DNA from: Candidatus Tayloriibacteriota bacterium
GTDB taxonomy: Bacteria; Patescibacteriota; Minisyncoccia; Phycocordibacterales; UBA6065
DNA: 64,000 nucleotides
Assembly (NCBI GenBank): GCA_016215405.1
Contig: JACRJQ010000007.1
Span: 143 to 64,142, forward strand
Reading direction: 5' to 3'
A program made the translations under genes and the position numbers. How positions within the stretch are numbered: the stretch's first letter is position 1; every line of letters begins with the position of its first letter. The notes under the pieces were generated by a model. It worked only from the letters and a program-made list of their open reading frames with translations. It was not told the origin of the DNA and did no database searches. This document shows positions 3,007 through 41,620 of this stretch, in pieces.

Positions 3007-4954
<1,948 letters not shown>

Positions 4955-5168
4955 GTCTTAAAAAAGATTTAACCGATTAATAGGCGCCCGCCGGATCCGC
5001 GAGAAAGGCTCACGAGCCGAAGCGGACGGGCCGCGATGCGGCGTGAAGCTATTATAGGAGATGGCGAGGGCGCCTCAACTTGACTATTGCCTTTAGATTA
5101 TGTAGAGTTGGATTCGAAACTCACCTTCGGGCCGCAAAGCCCGATCAACCGCAACCCTCGATCCTGTC

Positions 5169-5486
5169 ATGATGAACATTGGATTCCACCGCAACGGACT
5201 TCCCCACCGACTGCTCGTCTGCACCGACAAGGTGCTGACTCCCGATCTGGACATCCTCCGGAACCGTCTCGTCCTCCTCCCGGAAGTCGAGCGCGTCGAT
5301 CACGCCAAGAGCGCGCCGAAGCAAGTCGTCCTCGAGCTCTCCTGGGCGCCGTCCACCGACGAGCTCTCCCGCCTCAAGCCCAAGATCGTCGACGAGTTCG
5401 AGCACTTCTTCCGCGAGAAGGCCGTCGTGGTCCCCTACGACGAGATCTGCGAGGACGAATCCCTCGTCGGCACCCGGGAAGAGTAA
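5169..5486 (+). CDS. hypothetical acidic 105-aa protein
   Basis: It has host-like GC3 codon usage. A TTGACT…TAGAGT promoter-like sequence lies upstream and an intrinsic terminator downstream. Confidence 0.5.
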   Translation: MMNIGFHRNGLPHRLLVCTDKVLTPDLDILRNRLVLLPEVERVDHAKSAPKQVVLELSWAPSTDELSRLKPKIVDEFEHFFREKAVVVPYDEICEDESLVGTREE

Positions 5487-5497
5487 GCCTCTTCCCG

Positions 5498-5550
5498 CGC
5501 GAAACGCCGCCGGCCCGATACAATCGGGTCGGCGTTTTGTTTTATTTGCG
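5498..5550 (+). terminator. intrinsic terminator
   Basis: An ~11-bp GC stem (with one G·U pair) is followed by UUUUGUUUUAUUU. Confidence 0.5.
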
Positions 5551-5581
5551 CGTCCGGACGGGCCATGATAAGGTATCTGTC

Positions 5582-31792: not shown

Positions 31793-32359
31793 TTAGTACT
31801 TCCTTATCACCCCTTTGACCACCGCAGCTATCTTGAGGTCGTACTCGGGGTAGATCGGCTTGTAGTTTTTGTTAGCCGGTTCGAGATAGACCTTGCCGTT
31901 CTTCTTTCGGTAATACTTCATAGTCCAACCCCCGTCGACTTCTGCGATGACGATCTCTCCCTCCTTCGCAGTAGTAGCTTTTTCCGCAACCACGAGGTCG
32001 CCCTCTTTTATCCCCTCTTCTATCATAGAGTCGCCCTTGACCTCGAGAAGGTACGAACTCTCCCGATCCTCTACGAGGAACGTGTTGAGGTTCATCGTAT
32101 CGAGCTCCGACTCCTCGGTAAGGGTCGGTATGCCGGCCTCGACCAGCCCAAGGAGCGGTATCTCGTCCGCTCCGCGCGTAAACGAGATTCGTCCCTGAGC
32201 GTCTTTGGAGAGGACGCCCGCCTCTACGAGCTTGTTGATGAGCTTGTAGACGGCGTTCTTCGATTTGAAGCCGGTAAGGTCCATGAGCTCCTTATAGCCC
32301 GGCATCCTCTTGTGCCTTTCGTAGAACGCTACTATCTTTTTCTTGTAAGTGTCTATCAT
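31793..32359 (-). CDS. lexA: LexA repressor
   Basis: It has a winged HTH N-terminus and an S24 peptidase domain with the GDSM motif and a Lys. Confidence 0.9.
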   Translation of the reverse strand: MIDTYKKKIVAFYERHKRMPGYKELMDLTGFKSKNAVYKLINKLVEAGVLSKDAQGRISFTRGADEIPLLGLVEAGIPTLTEESELDTMNLNTFLVEDRESSYLLEVKGDSMIEEGIKEGDLVVAEKATTAKEGEIVIAEVDGGWTMKYYRKKNGKVYLEPANKNYKPIYPEYDLKIAAVVKGVIRKY

Positions 32360-35358: not shown

Positions 35359-35370
35359 ATCCCCCGCGTT

Positions 35371-35398
35371 ATTCTCACATTCTCAAGAATGTGAGAAT
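35371..35398. repeat. 28-bp palindrome ATTCTCACATTCTCAAGAATGTGAGAAT, copy 1, in the promoter of the ArsR-like gene
   Basis: It is a perfect inverted repeat about 65 bp upstream of the ATG at 35464. Confidence 0.7.
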
Positions 35399-35463
35399 GA
35401 TTATTTTAGAAAGATTTTATCTCGACCTGCTTCAATTGTAGCGCTACCACCTAATCATAGCGT

Positions 35464-35733
35464 ATGTACAAGCCAAGACAGCTCGAAAGGATAGTGAAAG
35501 GATTCTCGAACCACAGGCGCATAGATATCCTGCGCCTTCTCGCGAAGAGGCCCGAGCTCTCGGTGCTCGATATATCGACCGATCTCAAGATCAACTTCAA
35601 GACTGCCTCCGAGCATATACGACGGCTCGCCATCGCTGGGGCGGTGATGAAGCGGAGCGAAGGGCGCGCCATACGGCACGCGCTCACGCCCCGCGGCGAG
35701 AATATTCTCAGATTCTTGAGAATATTGGAATGA
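35464..35733 (+). CDS. ArsR/SmtB family transcriptional regulator
   Basis: It has a winged HTH (…RRIDILRLLAKRPELSVLDISTDLKINFKTASEHIRRL…). Confidence 0.75.
   Translation: MYKPRQLERIVKGFSNHRRIDILRLLAKRPELSVLDISTDLKINFKTASEHIRRLAIAGAVMKRSEGRAIRHALTPRGENILRFLRILE
35701..35726. repeat. degenerate palindrome AATATTCTCAgattctTGAGAATATT inside the 3-prime end of the ArsR-like CDS
   Basis: It shares the ATTCTCA/TGAGAAT arms with the intergenic copies. Confidence 0.5.
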
Positions 35734-35734
35734 A

Positions 35735-36004
35735 TCAGTCGATCTTTTGGAGCGCTTTGTAGAGGGTGCCGGTAAGGCCCAAGGCGAGGGCTCCGGCGAT
35801 GAAGAGTATCCACGGATGCTCGTCGACGATCGGTATCTCCCCTACGGTCTCGCTAAAGCCCTTCGAGAACGCGGCGACGGAGAACGTGAGGAGAAATGCG
35901 AAAACGAGGGGGTAGCGGCGAAGCACAGGCTGAGTGATGCTCCCCGCCCTGTCGTGGATATCCTTTACCATGTCTTCGATGCGCTTTATCGGGTCTTTTT
36001 CCAT
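35735..36004 (-). CDS. hypothetical small protein with a C-terminal TM segment
   Basis: It is an 89-aa ORF whose start is flanked by palindrome copy 2. Confidence 0.4.
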   Translation of the reverse strand: MEKDPIKRIEDMVKDIHDRAGSITQPVLRRYPLVFAFLLTFSVAAFSKGFSETVGEIPIVDEHPWILFIAGALALGLTGTLYKALQKID

Positions 36005-36036
36005 GGCTTTATCCTACCATCCGCGCCGCCATCCCG

Positions 36037-36072
36037 CCTCATTCTCACAGTCTTGAGAATGTGAGAATGAGG
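36037..36072. repeat. palindrome copy 2 (inverted orientation, 1 mismatch)
   Basis: The sequence is cctcattctcacagtcttgagaatgtgagaatgagg. Confidence 0.7.
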
Positions 36073-36125
36073 CGGAGACACGGAGAAAAGGGACAAAAAA
36101 ACAGGAAAAAAGAGAGCGTAGAGCC

Positions 36126-36800: not shown

Positions 36801-36841
36801 TGCCCCACTCTATTTCACCGCGCGCAAGAGAGCAAGGAGCC

Positions 36842-36881
36842 CGAATCATTCTCACATTCTCAAGAATGTGAGAATGATTCG
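36842..36881. repeat. palindrome copy 3 (extended 18-bp arms)
   Basis: The sequence is cgaatcattctcacattctcaagaatgtgagaatgattcg. Confidence 0.7.
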
Positions 36882-36945
36882 GGCGGGCGGATGGGCGGAT
36901 GAGCAGACCGTGCTCACATTCGTGTTCGTGTCCGAATGGGCGACT

Positions 36946-37497: not shown

Positions 37498-37513
37498 CTT
37501 GATTTTGTCTTAT

Positions 37514-38047
37514 CTAATTTGCTTCAGGCAGACCTAATTTATTTAAGGGGATTGTATTGAAAAAATAATCACAACCGTTTTCGCGTATATAGGCAAGAAC
37601 ATCCTTATATGAAGGATGTGAAAACCAATCATTCAAAATATAGTAATACTCAACCTTTGCACCTAGATCTCTGACCAACTTCATGTACTGAGCCCTCTTA
37701 AAAGCTGATGTTTGGAGCTTTTCATCAACAGATCCAGAAACTTTCTGAAACTTCATTTCAATTATATGCAACGTGTTAGTTGCAAATACATATACCGCAT
37801 CGTCAGGCAATAGTTTCTTTGAAATGATTTCCTCGTGGTTAATCCCTTTTGCCTTAAGAAATTTGTACAAGGCACTTTTTCTGAGATGCATTGCGAGTGG
37901 TGTTCCGTTAAAGGAAATCGTGCCATCTTTTGCAATGCTATAACCCTTTACCTGCCCAAGGACAGCAAGAAAATCTGCCTTCTTCTCAAAGTGAAGGCCT
38001 GTAACGGTATTCGCACCTCCCTTGCCGCCAGTTTTCATGATCCACAT
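37514..38047 (-). CDS. putative PD-(D/E)xK nuclease (candidate restriction endonuclease), AT-rich foreign gene
   Basis: The 177-aa product has …LLPDDAVYVFATNTLHIIEMKFQK… (PD…ExK spacing). It is divergent from the Dam-like MTase gene and has low GC. Confidence 0.45.
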   Translation of the reverse strand: MWIMKTGGKGGANTVTGLHFEKKADFLAVLGQVKGYSIAKDGTISFNGTPLAMHLRKSALYKFLKAKGINHEEIISKKLLPDDAVYVFATNTLHIIEMKFQKVSGSVDEKLQTSAFKRAQYMKLVRDLGAKVEYYYILNDWFSHPSYKDVLAYIRENGCDYFFNTIPLNKLGLPEAN

Positions 38048-38091
38048 TCAATCATGAAAGTTCCAATCCGACAAAGGGAAATAATCATACA

Positions 38092-38961
38092 ATGGTGATA
38101 AAATCACCCCACATGGAATCTGCAAAACCAGCACGGGCGCGACCTTTCGTTAAATGGGCCGGAGGAAAGGGGCAACTTTTGAAACAATTACATCCGCTTT
38201 TTCCTAAAAAATTTTCCACTTATTATGAACCCTTCCTTGGGGGTGGCGCTGTCTTCTTCAGCCTGTCTCCTAAAAAGGCGATTATAAATGATATCAACGT
38301 CACTCTTGCAAATACATATAGACAAATAAGAAGCGATGTCGATTCACTGATTGAGGAACTTAAAAAAATAGAGAAAAAATTCCTCTCAGCGGGTGAAGAT
38401 GGGAGGAGAGAATTCTACTACAAGATACGTGACAGATATAATTCTCTACCTCCTGAAGATCTAAAACGTTGCTCTCTGTTCATATTTCTAAATCGAACAG
38501 GATTCAATGGAATGTATCGAGAGAATTCAAGCGGAAAAATGAATATACCCTTTGGTCGCAACAAAAACCCAAAGATATTAAATGAAGAAAATCTCAGGGC
38601 AATCGCTGAAACTTTACATGACATTGAAATTTCTTCAAATCCGTTTGAAAAAGCGGTGTCTAGGGCAAAAAAGGATGATTTCGTTTATTTTGACCCTCCC
38701 TACGACCCAATCTCTTCTACCTCCAGTTTTACTGCCTATACAGGAAGCAGCTTCGCTCAAGAAGACCAAATCAGACTCAGAGACTTGTTCGTGAAACTCG
38801 ACAAGAAGGGTGTATTCGTGATGCTCAGTAACTCAAGCACACCATTTATAAAAAATCTTTACAAAAACTATCGGCAAGTAAAAGTTCGTGCATCGAGAAT
38901 GATAAATTCCAAAACAGCCGATAGGGGTGAAATAGATGAGCTCGTTGTCCTAAATTACTGA
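38092..38961 (+). CDS. Dam-like (alpha-class, D12) N6-adenine DNA methyltransferase
   Basis: It has FVKWAGGK, EPFLGGGAV (motif I) and FVYFDPPY (motif IV). Its AT-rich codon usage is unlike the host. Confidence 0.9.
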   Translation: MVIKSPHMESAKPARARPFVKWAGGKGQLLKQLHPLFPKKFSTYYEPFLGGGAVFFSLSPKKAIINDINVTLANTYRQIRSDVDSLIEELKKIEKKFLSAGEDGRREFYYKIRDRYNSLPPEDLKRCSLFIFLNRTGFNGMYRENSSGKMNIPFGRNKNPKILNEENLRAIAETLHDIEISSNPFEKAVSRAKKDDFVYFDPPYDPISSTSSFTAYTGSSFAQEDQIRLRDLFVKLDKKGVFVMLSNSSTPFIKNLYKNYRQVKVRASRMINSKTADRGEIDELVVLNY

Positions 38962-39788
38962 GACACCAAATCAGAGAATCGTTTTATAGACAAGTCCAAG
39001 TATTCTTTAGTTTTATCAATACCTATATATTTTCTTCCTTGCATTATCGCAGCAATACCCGTTGTTGAACTGCCGGTAAAAGGATCAAGAACCACGTCCC
39101 CCTCTTTTGTACTTGCAAGAATGATTCTCTTTAAAAGCTCAAGTGGTTTTTGAGTTGGATGTTTGCCAAATTTCTTCTCGGAAGATTTTGACGTGCCAAC
39201 AGACCAAACCGATCTCATTTGCAGACCCGGCTTTTTGAGACCATCTTCGGGCCAATTCCCCTCCTTCATAAGTTCATAATTGAAAGTGTGTTTCGCCTTC
39301 TTCTCTTTTCTTACCCAAATAAGAGTCTCGTGACTTGCTGTAAAAAAACGACAACTCAGATTTGGGGCAGCATTGGGCTTGAACCACGAGATATCATTTA
39401 GGATGTGGTATCCCAAAACCTGTATTGCATGGCCGCATTGGTATATCGAATGATAGGTACCACTTACCCATAAAGTACCATGTGGTTTGAGCACACGTTT
39501 ACAGGCCTCCAACCATCTGTAATGAAAATTATAGTCGGCGTTAAAGCCGCCACTTTTATCCCAATCCCCCTTGTTTACACTCACCATCCGACCCGCATGC
39601 ACAGTAAATCCATCATTTGAAAGATTATAAGGAGGATCGGCGAAAATCATGTCCACCGAATTTTCAGGAAGTTCATTAAGCAACGAGATCGAATCGTCAT
39701 GAAACAACACAAAATTCCGGTCTGAAAAATATGGCTTCTTCTTCACCGATGAGAGAACCTTCTTTTTTGAAGCAAGTGTTTTCATCAC
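38955..39788 (-). CDS. beta-class N6-adenine DNA methyltransferase, DpnA/M.MboIC-like (probably G6mATC)
   Basis: It has IFADPPYNLSN, GDWDK, NPAPNLSCR and KHPTQKP…IILASTKEGD…LDPFTGSSTTG motifs. Confidence 0.88.
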   Translation of the reverse strand: MMKTLASKKKVLSSVKKKPYFSDRNFVLFHDDSISLLNELPENSVDMIFADPPYNLSNDGFTVHAGRMVSVNKGDWDKSGGFNADYNFHYRWLEACKRVLKPHGTLWVSGTYHSIYQCGHAIQVLGYHILNDISWFKPNAAPNLSCRFFTASHETLIWVRKEKKAKHTFNYELMKEGNWPEDGLKKPGLQMRSVWSVGTSKSSEKKFGKHPTQKPLELLKRIILASTKEGDVVLDPFTGSSTTGIAAIMQGRKYIGIDKTKEYLDLSIKRFSDLVSQ

Positions 39789-39848
39789 TGAAATTATAGC
39801 AACTCTCGATCTCTTGTGTTATTCACAAATTTATCTTTTTTTTATCTT

Positions 39849-41552
39849 TTAAATCTTCGTCAACGTGTATATCTCCCCTGCTATATCGCGACCTCTCTGT
39901 TCGATTGCAAGTCGCCAATCAATGTTGAATATATCCTTGTACTTTGATTCAATTTCCTTATTAAACTTAAAATGAGAATTTTTATACACTTCTGTACACT
40001 TCTTTTCTAAAGGCCAATCACTAGCATTTTGGTTATCATCCGGGTGTAGTAAGGTGAGATTTCCAATCAAATGAACATAATCTTTTATCTCTGATTTCCT
40101 TAAATTCCACTTTTTTGGGTCTTGGGGCAGGATATGTTCAATTGAAGTTTTTTTGAATGTGATTTTTCCTCCATCTTTTGCCTCAATAACTTTCTTAAAA
40201 AGAAATTCAGTTAGCTTTGAGTCTGATGTATAAGAAAGATCTGAAACGAAACAATCAATGAAACTTTCTCTGTCCTTCGTTAGGTTCTTCAAGGTATCGA
40301 TAAAATCTTTTGATTTATTTTTTACATCGCAACCGGGAGTTTCTCGAACTATCCTGCAGTAATTCGCGAAATGTTTTTCATACACAGAAGGACTAAGTAT
40401 CGAAAATTTAGCCCGCAAGCAAAAATTCCACAGTAAATTTACTATGTCCCTGAATTGGCCCGGTTTAAATTCCTTGTCTTTCTTGTGTTTTATATAGAGC
40501 GCGACCAAAATCTCATAGACTTGTTGATTATCAATTATTTGGTAGTCCACAAGCGCATCTCTAACCGTAGTATCTAATCCGTCAAAATAATGACTGAATT
40601 GCTTGCTGAAAATAGCGAGATAAAATTTTGAATAATCTCGCAATTGTTGGCAGTAAGCGACTAAATCACCTTTGTTTCTATTTTTTTGGATTTCTTTTTT
40701 TAAGCTTTCATAAAGATCCTTTACAGAAACATATTTATTTTCAGCAATCCATACATGACGTAAAAACTTAGTTATCAAATCTGGTGCCACCTTTTCAAAG
40801 TCGAGCTCCATTTCATCCCAAATTTGCTCGACATCATCTAAACAACCAAGCTTCTCAGCATGACCAAAAAGCTGGTTCTTGATTTGATCTGAGACAGATA
40901 GACCGAGGCCTTTTGAGTTTAATCCCTCGAATGCGTCGAACACCTCTTTTTCCGAATCAAGAATTATTGCCACAACCTGAAGTTCTAAGACTTTGTCTAT
41001 TAGTTCATGCAATTTTTCCAGATCATCACCAATTTTTCCGGTTATTAACTCCTTTAATATTTTGTATGCTCGAATATAAACAAGTTGAGCCTTATCATAT
41101 TTGACTAGTTTTTCATTGTAACGCCCATCAATGAGATCAGTGAAAACCTGATAATACGTATTCTTACGTGGCTTTAGGACATAATAATCACCTCGAGTTC
41201 TCTTGTCCTTATCTTTAAGAAAATCATCAATCCAAGTGACTTTATCGTGATCTTTTTCAGGAAGAATTTCCTTCGCTCTATCACGAAGCGCGATTAACAT
41301 GAGACAGATGGTGGTGAGTCTTTGCTGACCATCAATAATTATCAATCTATTCTCATTGTCTCCATTACCTAAAACACAAACGATATTTCCGATAAAGTAG
41401 GATTTATCATTTGATTCTGTGGCGAAGAAAAAATCAGTCAATTGCTTAGACCCCCACTTATAAGCTCTCTGAAAATTAGGTACACCAAATTTTTTATATA
41501 CATCAACTAAAGTTGCAAAACTGTATTCATTAATGTCATGAAATCTTTTCAT
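39849..41552 (-). CDS. GmrSD-family type IV restriction endonuclease-like protein (DUF262 plus DUF1524/HNH)
   Basis: The N-terminus has NFQRAYKW…IIDGQQRLTT (DUF262, ParB/Srx-like). The C-terminus has …SIEHILPQ…HLIGNLTLL (DUF1524, His-Me finger). Confidence 0.85.
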   Translation of the reverse strand: MKRFHDINEYSFATLVDVYKKFGVPNFQRAYKWGSKQLTDFFFATESNDKSYFIGNIVCVLGNGDNENRLIIIDGQQRLTTICLMLIALRDRAKEILPEKDHDKVTWIDDFLKDKDKRTRGDYYVLKPRKNTYYQVFTDLIDGRYNEKLVKYDKAQLVYIRAYKILKELITGKIGDDLEKLHELIDKVLELQVVAIILDSEKEVFDAFEGLNSKGLGLSVSDQIKNQLFGHAEKLGCLDDVEQIWDEMELDFEKVAPDLITKFLRHVWIAENKYVSVKDLYESLKKEIQKNRNKGDLVAYCQQLRDYSKFYLAIFSKQFSHYFDGLDTTVRDALVDYQIIDNQQVYEILVALYIKHKKDKEFKPGQFRDIVNLLWNFCLRAKFSILSPSVYEKHFANYCRIVRETPGCDVKNKSKDFIDTLKNLTKDRESFIDCFVSDLSYTSDSKLTEFLFKKVIEAKDGGKITFKKTSIEHILPQDPKKWNLRKSEIKDYVHLIGNLTLLHPDDNQNASDWPLEKKCTEVYKNSHFKFNKEIESKYKDIFNIDWRLAIEQRGRDIAGEIYTLTKI

Positions 41553-41620
41553 TTGTACGATTTAGGAGTGCTTTCTAATACCTGTATTATATCGATTTCA
41601 GGATAAACAAAACATAAAAT

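What the first reader, a model, noticed from the sequence alone, without database searches (positions are those of the whole stretch)
37514..38047. Unusually small (177 aa) PD-(D/E)xK protein as the only candidate cognate endonuclease of the Dam/DpnA pair
The two MTases need a partner nuclease, but no R.DpnII/MboI-family gene exists. The only other island gene is a 177-aa protein with a PD…(14)…E-M-K motif and a downstream D…K…Y…G.VEYY stretch reminiscent of restriction-endonuclease-like or Uma2-like folds. It could be a novel minimal GATC-directed REase. Alternatively it is a nicking, MutH-like enzyme or an unrelated nuclease, and the GmrSD homolog is the true effector.
Basis: inference. Interest (0 to 1): 0.6.

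Follow-up and report, generated by a model that had tools for sequence, protein, structure and literature searches.

The report
Small unannotated GATC restriction enzyme candidate
The small gene next to the two GATC methylases is very probably their missing restriction enzyme, and it belongs to a large family found in thousands of genomes that databases label only as "hypothetical protein".

Summary
Window 37514-38047 (-) is a real gene; its start is probably M4, giving 174 aa. It lies in a 4-kb low-GC island with a Dam-type methylase, a DpnA/M.LlaDCHIB-type methylase and a GmrSD gene. The window has no DpnII/MboI-family gene.

The protein has an invariant E18...P78-D79...E94-x-K96 motif. Its confident AlphaFold model matches only PD-(D/E)XK nucleases, and only weakly. 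It belongs to a family of at least 6,474 proteins, every named member of which is called hypothetical. The family occurs in Patescibacteria, Neisseriaceae, many other phyla, archaea, phages and giant viruses.

In 75 of 76 informative species genomes, a methylase lies within 1.6 kb of the homolog, usually directly upstream. It is beta-class alone in 52, Dam alone in 14 and both in 9. The one specificity documented for both methylase types is GATC. One in-frame Dam-nuclease fusion exists. In Neisseria the classical dam gene is the first gene of a dam-dpnIIB-homolog operon. In gonococci, which carry the methyl-GATC-cutting Drg, both the methylase and the homolog are pseudogenes. GmrSD adjacency is not conserved (3 of 80).

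Verdict: most likely the cognate type IIP GATC endonuclease. It is a new variant of the DpnII-type cassette, and may be a remote, core-only relative of DpnII. Cleavage is untested. Interest is moderate.

The parts
37514..38038 (-). Candidate restriction endonuclease of 174 aa. The 177-aa reading starts at 38047; the probable start is the ATG at 38038. In 174-aa numbering the proposed active site is E18, P78-D79 and E94-x-K96, followed by G102-S103-V-D-E-K107-L-Q-T.
   Evidence: ORF listed. 100% identical to an NCBI hypothetical protein of 174 aa. AF2 model has pLDDT 87.1 and pTM 0.83. Foldseek hits are only PD-(D/E)XK nucleases. Methylase synteny is shown.
38092..38961 (+). M1: an alpha-class Dam-family N6-adenine DNA methylase, inferred to methylate GATC. 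It is transcribed divergently from the nuclease gene across a 53-nt gap.
   Evidence: PF02086 at 1.2e-65 and TIGR00571 at 1.4e-89 (300 bits against a cutoff of 114.85). 47% identical to the Dam-type methylase of the LlaDCHI cassette on pSRQ700.
38955..39788 (-). M2: a beta-class DpnA/M.LlaDCHIB-type N6-adenine methylase, inferred to methylate GATC. It converges on M1 with a 7-nt overlap. A promoter-like site lies at 39822-39793.
   Evidence: PF01555 at 2.5e-62. 54% identical over 256 aa to the second methylase of pSRQ700. Its best plasmid relatives all sit in Dam + beta-methylase + DpnII-family REase cassettes. The promoter-like site matches 10 of 12 positions.
39849..41552 (-). A GmrSD-type (DUF262 + DUF1524) type IV enzyme. 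It is a neighbour in the same island but an independent defence gene, not part of the R-M unit.
   Evidence: PF03235 at 1.3e-31 and PF07510 at 9.4e-18. PADLOC HEC-06 at 7.8e-77. A GmrSD lies near the nuclease homolog in only 3 of 80 species loci.
37500..41560 (.). A horizontally acquired low-GC defence island carrying the three-gene R-M module plus GmrSD.
   Evidence: GC is 0.34-0.41 inside and 0.54-0.64 outside. The same module, with beta methylase, Dam on the opposite strand and the nuclease in the same relative orientation, recurs in L001-L003, L007-L009, L011 and L027. No integrase, tRNA or flanking repeats were seen.

Best explanation
The 174-aa protein is the restriction subunit of a DpnII-type type II restriction-modification module.

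Shown: it is a conserved protein with a PD-(D/E)XK nuclease core. Its gene is almost always found beside a Dam-type methylase, a DpnA-type methylase, or both.

Inferred: it acts as a homodimer. It uses E18, D79, E94 and K96 to bind Mg2+ and cut both strands at unmethylated 5'-GATC-3'. N6-methyladenine, laid down by either neighbouring methylase, blocks cutting. Host DNA, with 388 GATC sites in this window alone, is therefore protected, while incoming unmethylated phage or plasmid DNA is cleaved.

The GATC assignment rests on one argument. The nuclease family occurs with the alpha-class methylase alone, with the beta-class methylase alone, or with both. Each methylase must therefore protect the nuclease's site on its own. 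GATC is the one specificity documented for both methylase lineages, in the DpnII and LlaDCHI cassettes and the neisserial dam/dpnIIB pair.

The adjacent GmrSD is a separate type IV system that happens to share the island.
For: (1) Catalytic motif. E18, P78, D79, E94, K96, S103 and K107 are invariant across 60 family members down to 33% identity.

(2) Fold. The AF2 model has pLDDT 87.1. Strand 80-84 starts just after D79, strand 89-96 carries E94-x-K96, and helix 111-125 and strand 128-135 follow. Every meaningful Foldseek hit in the PDB is a PD-(D/E)XK nuclease: BstEII (E 4.7e-3, probability 1.00), XisH, arenavirus endonuclease, Card1/Can2, SfsA, MUS81 and BspD6I.

(3) Synteny. Across 80 species-representative genomes the nearby methylase is beta-class only in 52, Dam only in 14 and both in 9. 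In 4 the upstream DNA is cut by the contig end, and 1 has none. The methylase usually lies 3-100 nt upstream on the same strand, with overlapping stop and start codons in L004, L093 and L097. A 29%-identical homolog on a Leuconostoc plasmid also follows a Dam gene.

(4) Fusion. P0153 is a 489-aa in-frame fusion of a D12 methylase and the nuclease.

(5) Methylase identity. The window methylases are 47% and 54% identical to the two methylases of the LlaDCHI cassette on pSRQ700. In N. meningitidis, NEIS0327 (dam) and NEIS0328 (dpnIIB) are both assigned to GATC. GATC is 94-100% m6A-methylated by PacBio, and the papers attribute the detected signal to dam (PMC7973814, PMC7046676).

(6) Neisseria. 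The order leuS-dam-dpnIIB-184-aa homolog forms a tight operon in N. cinerea-type genomes, and Kingella oralis has the same operon. The published dam primer maps inside its first gene. In N. gonorrhoeae, which carries Drg (a DpnI-like enzyme that cuts GmATC; PMC4269198), the beta methylase has a nonsense codon and the homolog a frameshift.

(7) Spread. The family is patchy and horizontally transferred across Patescibacteria, Proteobacteria, Elusimicrobia, Planctomycetota, Bacteroidales, archaea, phages and giant viruses, at 53-64% identity among the 80 best-matching species loci.
Against: - No biochemical data exist for any family member.
- The window protein has no hit in NCBIfam or PHROGs. 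PADLOC gives only sub-threshold hits to JAB models and none to a nuclease or REase model. In Pfam it scores below the gathering cutoff for PDDEXK_11 (21.1 against 23.7 bits).
- Structural matches are weak (best TM 0.41 over 94 columns), so the fold assignment rests on the motif plus low-scoring hits.
- GATC is not depleted in the host window (388 observed, 407 expected). This result is neutral.
- The beta methylase also resembles CcrM/HinfI-type GANTC enzymes (47% against 54%), so its specificity alone is not decisive.
- In 17 of 46 viral contigs no methylase was detected nearby.
- One genome locus (L006/L043) shows an intact nuclease ORF beside a split methylase. This may be an assembly indel.
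Confidence: 0.8

Rival explanations
1. The protein is a strand-specific nicking enzyme, a functional analogue of MutH. It would cut the unmethylated strand of hemimethylated GATC for mismatch repair or another process, rather than act as a double-strand restriction enzyme.
For: It is small and has a single domain, and it is always linked to GATC adenine methylases. Its hosts, Neisseria and Patescibacteria, lack MutH (my own knowledge). Computation cannot distinguish nicking from double-strand cutting.
Against: No sequence similarity to MutH or Sau3AI appears in PDB searches with the single sequence or with two profiles, and neither is in the Foldseek top 50. The gene travels with its methylase as a mobile low-GC cassette through unrelated phyla, plasmids, phages and giant viruses. 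That pattern is typical of R-M systems and not of repair genes. It decays together with its methylase in gonococci. MutH genes are not operonic with dam (my own knowledge).
Confidence: 0.07
2. The protein is a restriction enzyme cognate to these methylases, but its site is not plain GATC. It could be a longer site containing GATC, or GANTC.
For: The beta methylase's best NCBIfam hit is CcrM (GANTC) over its N-terminal 249 residues. CcrM-type plasmid homologs are 47% identical. D12-family methylases with other specificities exist (my own knowledge).
Against: The family pairs with Dam-type methylases alone in 14 species and with beta-type alone in 52. A GANTC cutter would not be protected by a GATC Dam. 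The window's Dam scores 300 bits on TIGR00571. The beta methylase is closer to M.LlaDCHIB (54%) and has the short DpnA-type length of 277 aa, without the CcrM C-terminal domain (the match covers 249 of 350 profile positions). A longer site containing GATC is not excluded.
Confidence: 0.08
3. The two methylases are orphan or regulatory enzymes, or GmrSD is the island's only effector. The 174-aa protein would then be an unrelated nuclease-fold protein with another role.
For: Orphan Dam methylases are common. GmrSD lies in the same island. No direct functional data exist.
Against: GmrSD is near the homolog in only 3 of 80 species loci, while a methylase is near in 75 of 76 informative loci. A methylase-nuclease fusion exists. 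The catalytic residues are strictly conserved. Type IV GmrSD enzymes need no methylase partner (my own knowledge).
Confidence: 0.04

Closest known systems
DpnII / LlaDCHI / MboI three-gene GATC restriction-modification cassettes (dpnM-dpnA-dpnB; pSRQ700 llaDCHIA-B-R)
   Same: Both have an alpha-class Dam-type methylase, a short beta-class DpnA-type methylase and one nuclease gene, tightly packed and often with overlapping stop and start codons. The window methylases are 47% and 54% identical to those of pSRQ700. The inferred site and methyl sensitivity are the same.
   Different: The nuclease is 174 aa rather than about 285-305 aa, and it lacks the roughly 150-aa N-terminal region. It does not match Pfam PF04556.

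Profile-profile similarity to the C-terminal catalytic half of the DpnII family is only suggestive. The hhalign score is 30.8, probability 21%, P 1.1e-3. The alignment pairs D79 with D210, E94 with E225, K96 with N227, G-S with G-S, and K107 with K235. The best of 30 column-shuffled controls scored 20.2.

Most family loci carry only one of the two methylases.
Small homodimeric PD-(D/E)XK type IIP restriction endonucleases (for example PvuII and BglII; the closest solved fold hit here is BstEII, 9ibq)
   Same: Single-domain size, a PD...(D/E)xK active site on adjacent beta strands, an adjacent cognate methylase, and a presumed palindromic target.
   Different: There is no detectable sequence similarity. 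The structural match is only to the core (TM 0.41, 94 columns, 12% identity). The invariant G-S-V-D-E-K-L-Q-T segment after the ExK strand and the glycine-rich N-terminus ending in E18 have no counterpart that I could identify.
Pfam PF20472 (PDDEXK_11), an uncharacterised PD-(D/E)XK domain family
   Same: 52 of 60 family members match it at E<=0.01, and some exceed the gathering score, for example P0122 at 30.1 bits. The match covers the PD...ExK strands.
   Different: The window protein is below the cutoff (21.1 against 23.7 bits). The match covers only about 40 residues of the protein (residues 72-111; profile positions 42-81 of 145). The Pfam entry carries no functional or specificity annotation.
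MutH / Sau3AI family (GATC-specific nickase and restriction enzyme)
   Same: A GATC-linked nuclease of the PD-(D/E)XK superfamily.
   Different: No sequence hit to any PDB chain, MutH included, with the single sequence or with either profile. MutH is not among the top 50 structural matches. Sau3AI-type systems use m5C methylases (my own knowledge).

Membership tests
PD-(D/E)XK type II restriction endonuclease (generic) | Conserved acidic-acidic-lysine catalytic motif, (E)...PD...(D/E)xK | tested here: met
   E18, P78, D79, E94 and K96 are invariant in 37 close and 60 diverse homologs.
PD-(D/E)XK type II restriction endonuclease (generic) | Restriction-endonuclease-like alpha/beta core with the D at the start of one strand and ExK on the next | tested here: met
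PD-(D/E)XK type II restriction endonuclease (generic) | Gene adjacent to a cognate DNA methylase across relatives | tested here: met
   75 of 76 informative species loci have one. An in-frame methylase-nuclease fusion exists, P0153.
PD-(D/E)XK type II restriction endonuclease (generic) | Site-specific Mg2+-dependent DNA cleavage that cognate methylation blocks | not testable with these tools
   This needs enzymology or in vivo restriction assays.
DpnII/MboI restriction endonuclease family (Pfam PF04556) | Significant match to the family profile | tested here: not met
   No PF04556 hit for the window protein. One of 60 relatives hits it at E 1.1e-3. A DpnII HMM built here finds nothing among the window's ORFs.
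DpnII/MboI restriction endonuclease family (Pfam PF04556) | Remote homology of the catalytic core (profile-profile) | tested here: inconclusive
   hhalign gives probability 12.6-20.8%, P 1-2e-3 and score 30.8, against at most 20.2 in 30 column-shuffled controls. The catalytic residues align in register. The AF2 model of a DpnII-family protein was too poor to compare (pLDDT 60).
DpnII/MboI restriction endonuclease family (Pfam PF04556) | Length of about 280-305 aa with an N-terminal region of about 150 aa before the core | tested here: not met
   The family is 170-185 aa long, and only about 65 residues precede the PD motif region.
DpnII-type GATC R-M system (system level) | Dam-type alpha methylase plus DpnA-type beta methylase beside the nuclease | tested here: met
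   The same trio is found in 9 of 80 species loci and in Neisseria and Kingella operons.
DpnII-type GATC R-M system (system level) | GATC m6A specificity of the methylases | tested here: inconclusive
   Specificity is inferred from homology: TIGR00571 at 300 bits, and 47% and 54% identity to the LlaDCHI methylases. It is also inferred from PacBio data on the neisserial orthologous locus (PMC7973814, PMC7046676). This organism's methylome is not available.
MutH/Sau3AI family | Sequence or structural similarity to MutH | tested here: not met
   No PDB sequence hits. MutH is absent from the Foldseek top 50.
Pfam PF20472 PDDEXK_11 | Score at or above the gathering threshold (23.7 bits) | tested here: not met
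   The window protein scores 21.1 bits. Several relatives pass at 24-30 bits, and 52 of 60 match at E<=0.01. The family therefore borders or overlaps this Pfam entry.

The most novel reading that the evidence does not exclude
The family is not a classical restriction enzyme. It would be a minimal GATC-methylation-sensing nickase that works with Dam- or DpnA-type methylases in lineages lacking MutH (Neisseriaceae, Patescibacteria, giant viruses). Its role might be strand discrimination, replication-coupled processing, or targeted nicking of incoming DNA.

A milder version of the novel reading: it is a core-only descendant of DpnII that has shed the whole N-terminal domain yet keeps GATC recognition. 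That would locate sequence readout in the roughly 170-aa catalytic core.
Probability: 0.08. Interest if true: 0.75.

Novelty: new variant of a known kind. Interest (0 to 1): 0.45.

Why it matters
If confirmed, this would add a further REase family for GATC alongside the DpnII/MboI and Sau3AI families that I know of. It would be a compact enzyme of about 174 aa.

It would turn thousands of "hypothetical proteins" beside apparently orphan Dam or DpnA methylases into recognisable complete R-M systems. That affects defence-system censuses, which currently miss it, especially in Patescibacteria/CPR and in giant viruses.

It also recasts a much-studied locus. The neisserial dam gene would be the first gene of a three-gene R-M cassette. 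The dam-replacing gene drg would have displaced the methylase of that cassette, leaving a decaying second methylase and nuclease behind in gonococci.

A small GATC enzyme could also be a convenient model for minimal sequence recognition.

Tried and rejected
- AF2 on a DpnII-family protein (alignment A4), intended for an indirect structural comparison, gave pLDDT 60 with a disordered catalytic region. It was not used.
- Sequence and profile searches of all PDB chains gave nothing.
- NCBIfam and PHROGs gave nothing, and PADLOC gave only sub-threshold noise hits to JAB models. The INPHARED phage collection gave no match.
- GATC avoidance in the host window showed no signal (observed/expected 0.95). 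This is uninformative for a recently acquired island.
- The promoter and terminator scan of the island found nothing above shuffled expectation.
- No conserved GATC site or obvious operator lies upstream of the nuclease gene in the closest relatives.
- No paper in the searchable library describes the small ORF. REBASE itself could not be queried, so a putative REBASE entry cannot be excluded.
- By eye, the N-terminal G-x-x-x-E18 seems to correspond to the DpnII G161-x-x-x-E165 motif. hhalign did not support this, so I make no claim.
- GmrSD as the effector was rejected because its adjacency is not conserved.

Full report
OBSERVATION

The ORF at 37514..38047 on the minus strand exists and encodes 177 aa. 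Alignment with 36 homologs shows that the family begins at the fourth codon (M-K-T-G-G, ATG at 38038). The real product is therefore probably 174 aa, identical to an NCBI "hypothetical protein" from a Candidatus Taylorbacteria MAG. All residue numbers below use the 174-aa numbering.

The gene lies in a sharply bounded low-GC island, with GC of 0.34-0.41 against 0.54-0.64 outside, at about 37500-41560. The island holds four genes:
- the small ORF;
- a Dam-family (D12, alpha-class) adenine methylase at 38092-38961 (+);
- a short beta-class N6_N4 methylase at 38955-39788 (-);
- a GmrSD (DUF262 + DUF1524) type IV enzyme at 39849-41552 (-).

No DpnII/MboI-family gene occurs anywhere in the 64-kb window. 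I tested this by tblastn with 12 family members and by an HMM search of all six-frame ORFs.

THE PROTEIN

Curated libraries say almost nothing about it. Pfam gives only a sub-threshold PDDEXK_11 match (21.1 bits against a cutoff of 23.7). NCBIfam and PHROGs give nothing, and PADLOC gives only noise hits to JAB models. Sequence searches of the PDB are empty.

It nevertheless belongs to a very large family. There are 1,464 close relatives at 53-65% identity and 1,142 clusters at 50% identity in an exhaustive profile search. A search from the neisserial member found 6,474 proteins at E<=1e-20. Every name any source gives is "hypothetical" or "uncharacterized".

Across 60 members, down to 33% identity, the invariant residues are G14, E18, P78, D79, E94, K96, S103 and K107. 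Q98, G102, D105, E106 and K114 are nearly invariant. This is a textbook (E)...PD...ExK catalytic signature.

GENOMIC CONTEXT OF RELATIVES (THE DECISIVE EVIDENCE)

A scan of one genome per species found at least 541 species encoding a relative. They include Patescibacteria, Alpha-, Gamma- and Deltaproteobacteria, Elusimicrobia, Planctomycetota, Bacteroidales, Omnitrophota, Micrarchaeota and a Neobacillus isolate. The best 80, which were kept for analysis, are 53-64% identical. This is the patchy, horizontally spread pattern typical of R-M genes.

I searched those 80 loci by tblastn with the window's own neighbours. Results within 1.6 kb of the homolog were:
- a beta-class methylase only in 52 loci (52-81% identical to the window's);
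- a Dam-type methylase only in 14;
- both in 9;
- upstream DNA cut off by the contig end in 4;
- no methylase in 1.

That is 75 of 76 informative loci. The methylase is usually directly upstream on the same strand, 3-100 nt away, and often has overlapping stop and start codons. Some three-gene loci, like the window itself, carry Dam on the opposite strand.

Further support:
- A 29%-identical homolog on a Leuconostoc plasmid also follows a "DNA adenine methylase".
- One metagenomic protein, P0153 (489 aa), is an in-frame fusion of a D12 methylase and this domain.
- The window's exact module (beta methylase, Dam on the opposite strand, nuclease) recurs in the closest relatives: L001-3, L007-9, L011 and L027.

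By contrast, a GmrSD gene lies nearby in only 3 of 80 loci. GmrSD is an independent passenger of the island, not the effector of the methylases.

WHY GATC

The two window methylases are 47% and 54% identical to the two methylases of pSRQ700. That plasmid carries the LlaDCHI cassette, a DpnII-type system of Dam, a second methylase and a DpnII-family REase. The same trio is seen on Staphylococcus and Lactiplantibacillus plasmids. That LlaDCHI and DpnII recognise GATC is established knowledge that I cite from memory (Moineau et al. 1995; Lacks and co-workers).

The two methylase classes are structurally unrelated permutations. The small nuclease occurs with either one alone, so each must protect its site on its own. 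The specificity they are known to share is GATC.

Independent support comes from Neisseria. In N. meningitidis, NEIS0327 (dam) and NEIS0328 (dpnIIB) are both assigned to GATC. GATC is 94-100% m6A-methylated by PacBio, and the papers attribute the detected signal to dam (PMC7973814, PMC7046676).

The beta methylase also resembles CcrM/HinfI-type GANTC enzymes. On its own it would not be decisive. The Dam-only pairings are what exclude GANTC. A longer site containing GATC cannot be excluded.

THE NEISSERIA CONNECTION

In N. cinerea-type genomes the locus reads leuS, dam (270 aa), dpnIIB (269 aa) and a 184-aa homolog of the window protein, with overlapping gene ends. Kingella oralis has the same three-gene operon elsewhere in its genome. 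The published dam PCR primer DamF1 (PMC516771) maps inside the first gene. The classical neisserial dam is therefore the first gene of this cassette.

In N. gonorrhoeae, leuS is followed by drg. This is the DpnI-like endonuclease that cuts GmATC and is incompatible with GATC methylation (PMC4269198). Next comes the dpnIIB-like gene carrying an in-frame stop, and then the homolog carrying a frameshift.

Joint decay of the methylase and the small gene, once a methyl-GATC-dependent nuclease took over the locus, is what one expects of an R-M pair. The papers I could read describe the DpnIIB-like methylase downstream of drg or dam but never mention the small ORF.

From memory, several Neisseria species produce MboI isoschizomers (NlaII, NdeII, NciAI, NmeCI). 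This family is a plausible source of them, but I could not check REBASE.

RELATION TO THE DpnII/MboI FAMILY

The small protein fails the Pfam DpnII model. It is about 130 residues shorter than DpnII-family enzymes.

Profile-profile comparison with a 12-sequence DpnII-family alignment that I assembled from plasmids gives score 30.8, probability 20.8% and P 1.1e-3 over 95 columns. The alignment superposes D79 on D210, E94 on E225, K96 on N227, G102-S103 on G233-S234, K107 on K235, and the following helix and strand. Thirty column-shuffled controls reached at most 20.2. One of 60 family members hits PF04556 at E 1.1e-3.

This suggests, but does not establish, that the family is a remote, core-only relative of the C-terminal catalytic half of DpnII-type enzymes. 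An AF2 model of a DpnII-family protein was too poor to test this structurally. I leave the question as inconclusive.

MECHANISM AND CONFIDENCE

Shown:
- a conserved PD-(D/E)XK protein;
- near-obligate adjacency to methylases of two classes both linked to GATC;
- a fusion with one of those methylases;
- joint decay with its methylase in gonococci;
- a mobile, patchy distribution.

Inferred: a homodimeric, Mg2+-dependent type IIP endonuclease that cleaves unmethylated GATC and is blocked by m6A from either methylase.

I put about 0.8 on [quoted passage not shown]. Part of that uncertainty concerns the exact site. The remainder is split among three rivals: a MutH-like nickase (0.07), an R-M nuclease with a different or longer site (0.08), and an unrelated role with orphan methylases or GmrSD as effector (0.04).

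Host GATC frequency is normal (388 sites, observed/expected 0.95). This is neutral for a recently acquired island, but it means the host depends on full methylation if the enzyme is active.

NOVELTY AND INTEREST

The kind of system, a DpnII-type GATC R-M cassette in a defence island, is well known. The new element is the nuclease: an unannotated, very widespread family of about 174 aa. It replaces the DpnII/MboI-type enzyme and is invisible to Pfam, NCBIfam and PADLOC.

New REase families beside known methylases turn up regularly, so a specialist would be interested rather than astonished. The reach of the family (CPR bacteria, Neisseriaceae, phages, giant-virus MAGs) and the reinterpretation of the neisserial dam/drg locus add value. 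REBASE may already list members as putative enzymes, and I could not check that.

I rate it a new variant of a known kind, with interest 0.45.

A practical note for follow-up. The test must be run in a dam- background.

Noticed in passing
window 35363-35402, 36033-36075, 36839-36884 (degenerate copy at 35696-35735): A palindromic element of about 40 nt (core ATTCTCACATTCTCAAGAATGTGAGAAT, a roughly 20-bp stem with a 2-nt loop) recurs three times in intergenic gaps of the high-GC host DNA just left of the island. None are expected by chance. It could be a terminator hairpin, a REP-like element or an operator. It is not part of the R-M island.
   Followed up: partly
L087 (N. gonorrhoeae NZ_CP119140.1 5933-16473), positions about 3197-5560; L093-L096; L097: In gonococci the order is leuS, drg (DpnI-like), a dpnIIB-like methylase with an in-frame stop, and a homolog of the window protein with one frameshift. 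In N. cinerea-type genomes and in Kingella oralis the intact operon is dam, dpnIIB and a 180-184-aa homolog. The small third gene is not mentioned in the dam/drg papers I read.
   Followed up: yes
L092 3350-4819 (protein P0153): A single 489-aa ORF fuses a D12 Dam-type methylase (residues 20-268) to the small nuclease domain (residues 321-485). It could be a natural single-chain R-M enzyme of this family.
   Followed up: partly
L133-L151 (IMG/VR, several GVMAG giant-virus contigs); BFVD hits A0A7S6NXM7 and G8DDE9: A divergent subfamily (32-37% identical) occurs in giant-virus MAGs and prasinoviruses, in most contigs 35-146 nt from a Dam-type methylase. In 17 of 46 viral contigs (for example L112-L115, L117, L119, L121, L125-L129) no methylase was detected nearby. 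Some of those matches cover only residues 50-158.
   Followed up: partly
protein P0133 (290 aa, metagenomic): This family member carries a C-terminal extension that matches Pfam DUF7004 (6e-28). It is a second domain architecture of unknown meaning.
   Followed up: no
L005 4529-6004; also L001 11810-12484 and window 31793-32359: In one locus the beta methylase upstream of the nuclease homolog is called as a 491-aa protein with an N-terminal LexA_DNA_bind + Peptidase_S24 region. LexA-like genes also lie a few kb away in L001 and in the window. This may be coincidence, a gene-calling merger, or SOS-linked control.
   Followed up: no
L031 728-2431; L019 6522-8060; L030 4200-5237: A GmrSD gene 58% identical to the window's sits 19 nt downstream of the nuclease homolog in L031, a Saccharibacteria contig. 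Weaker GmrSD relatives lie nearby in L019 and L030. The R-M plus GmrSD pairing therefore recurs occasionally but is not conserved.
   Followed up: partly
L006 / L043 5077-5995: Here the beta methylase upstream of an apparently intact nuclease ORF is split into two ORFs of 199 and 119 aa. This is either an assembly indel or a case of an intact nuclease with a broken methylase, which would argue against an active restriction enzyme there.
   Followed up: no
window 38039-38091 and the corresponding region of L007, L008, L011 and L027: The 53-nt divergent gap between the nuclease and Dam genes has no strong Shine-Dalgarno sequence. A semi-conserved TGTGATT(T/A)AAT-like motif lies about 10-25 nt before the nuclease ATG in the closest relatives. 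It may be an extended -10 box implying a very short leader.
   Followed up: no
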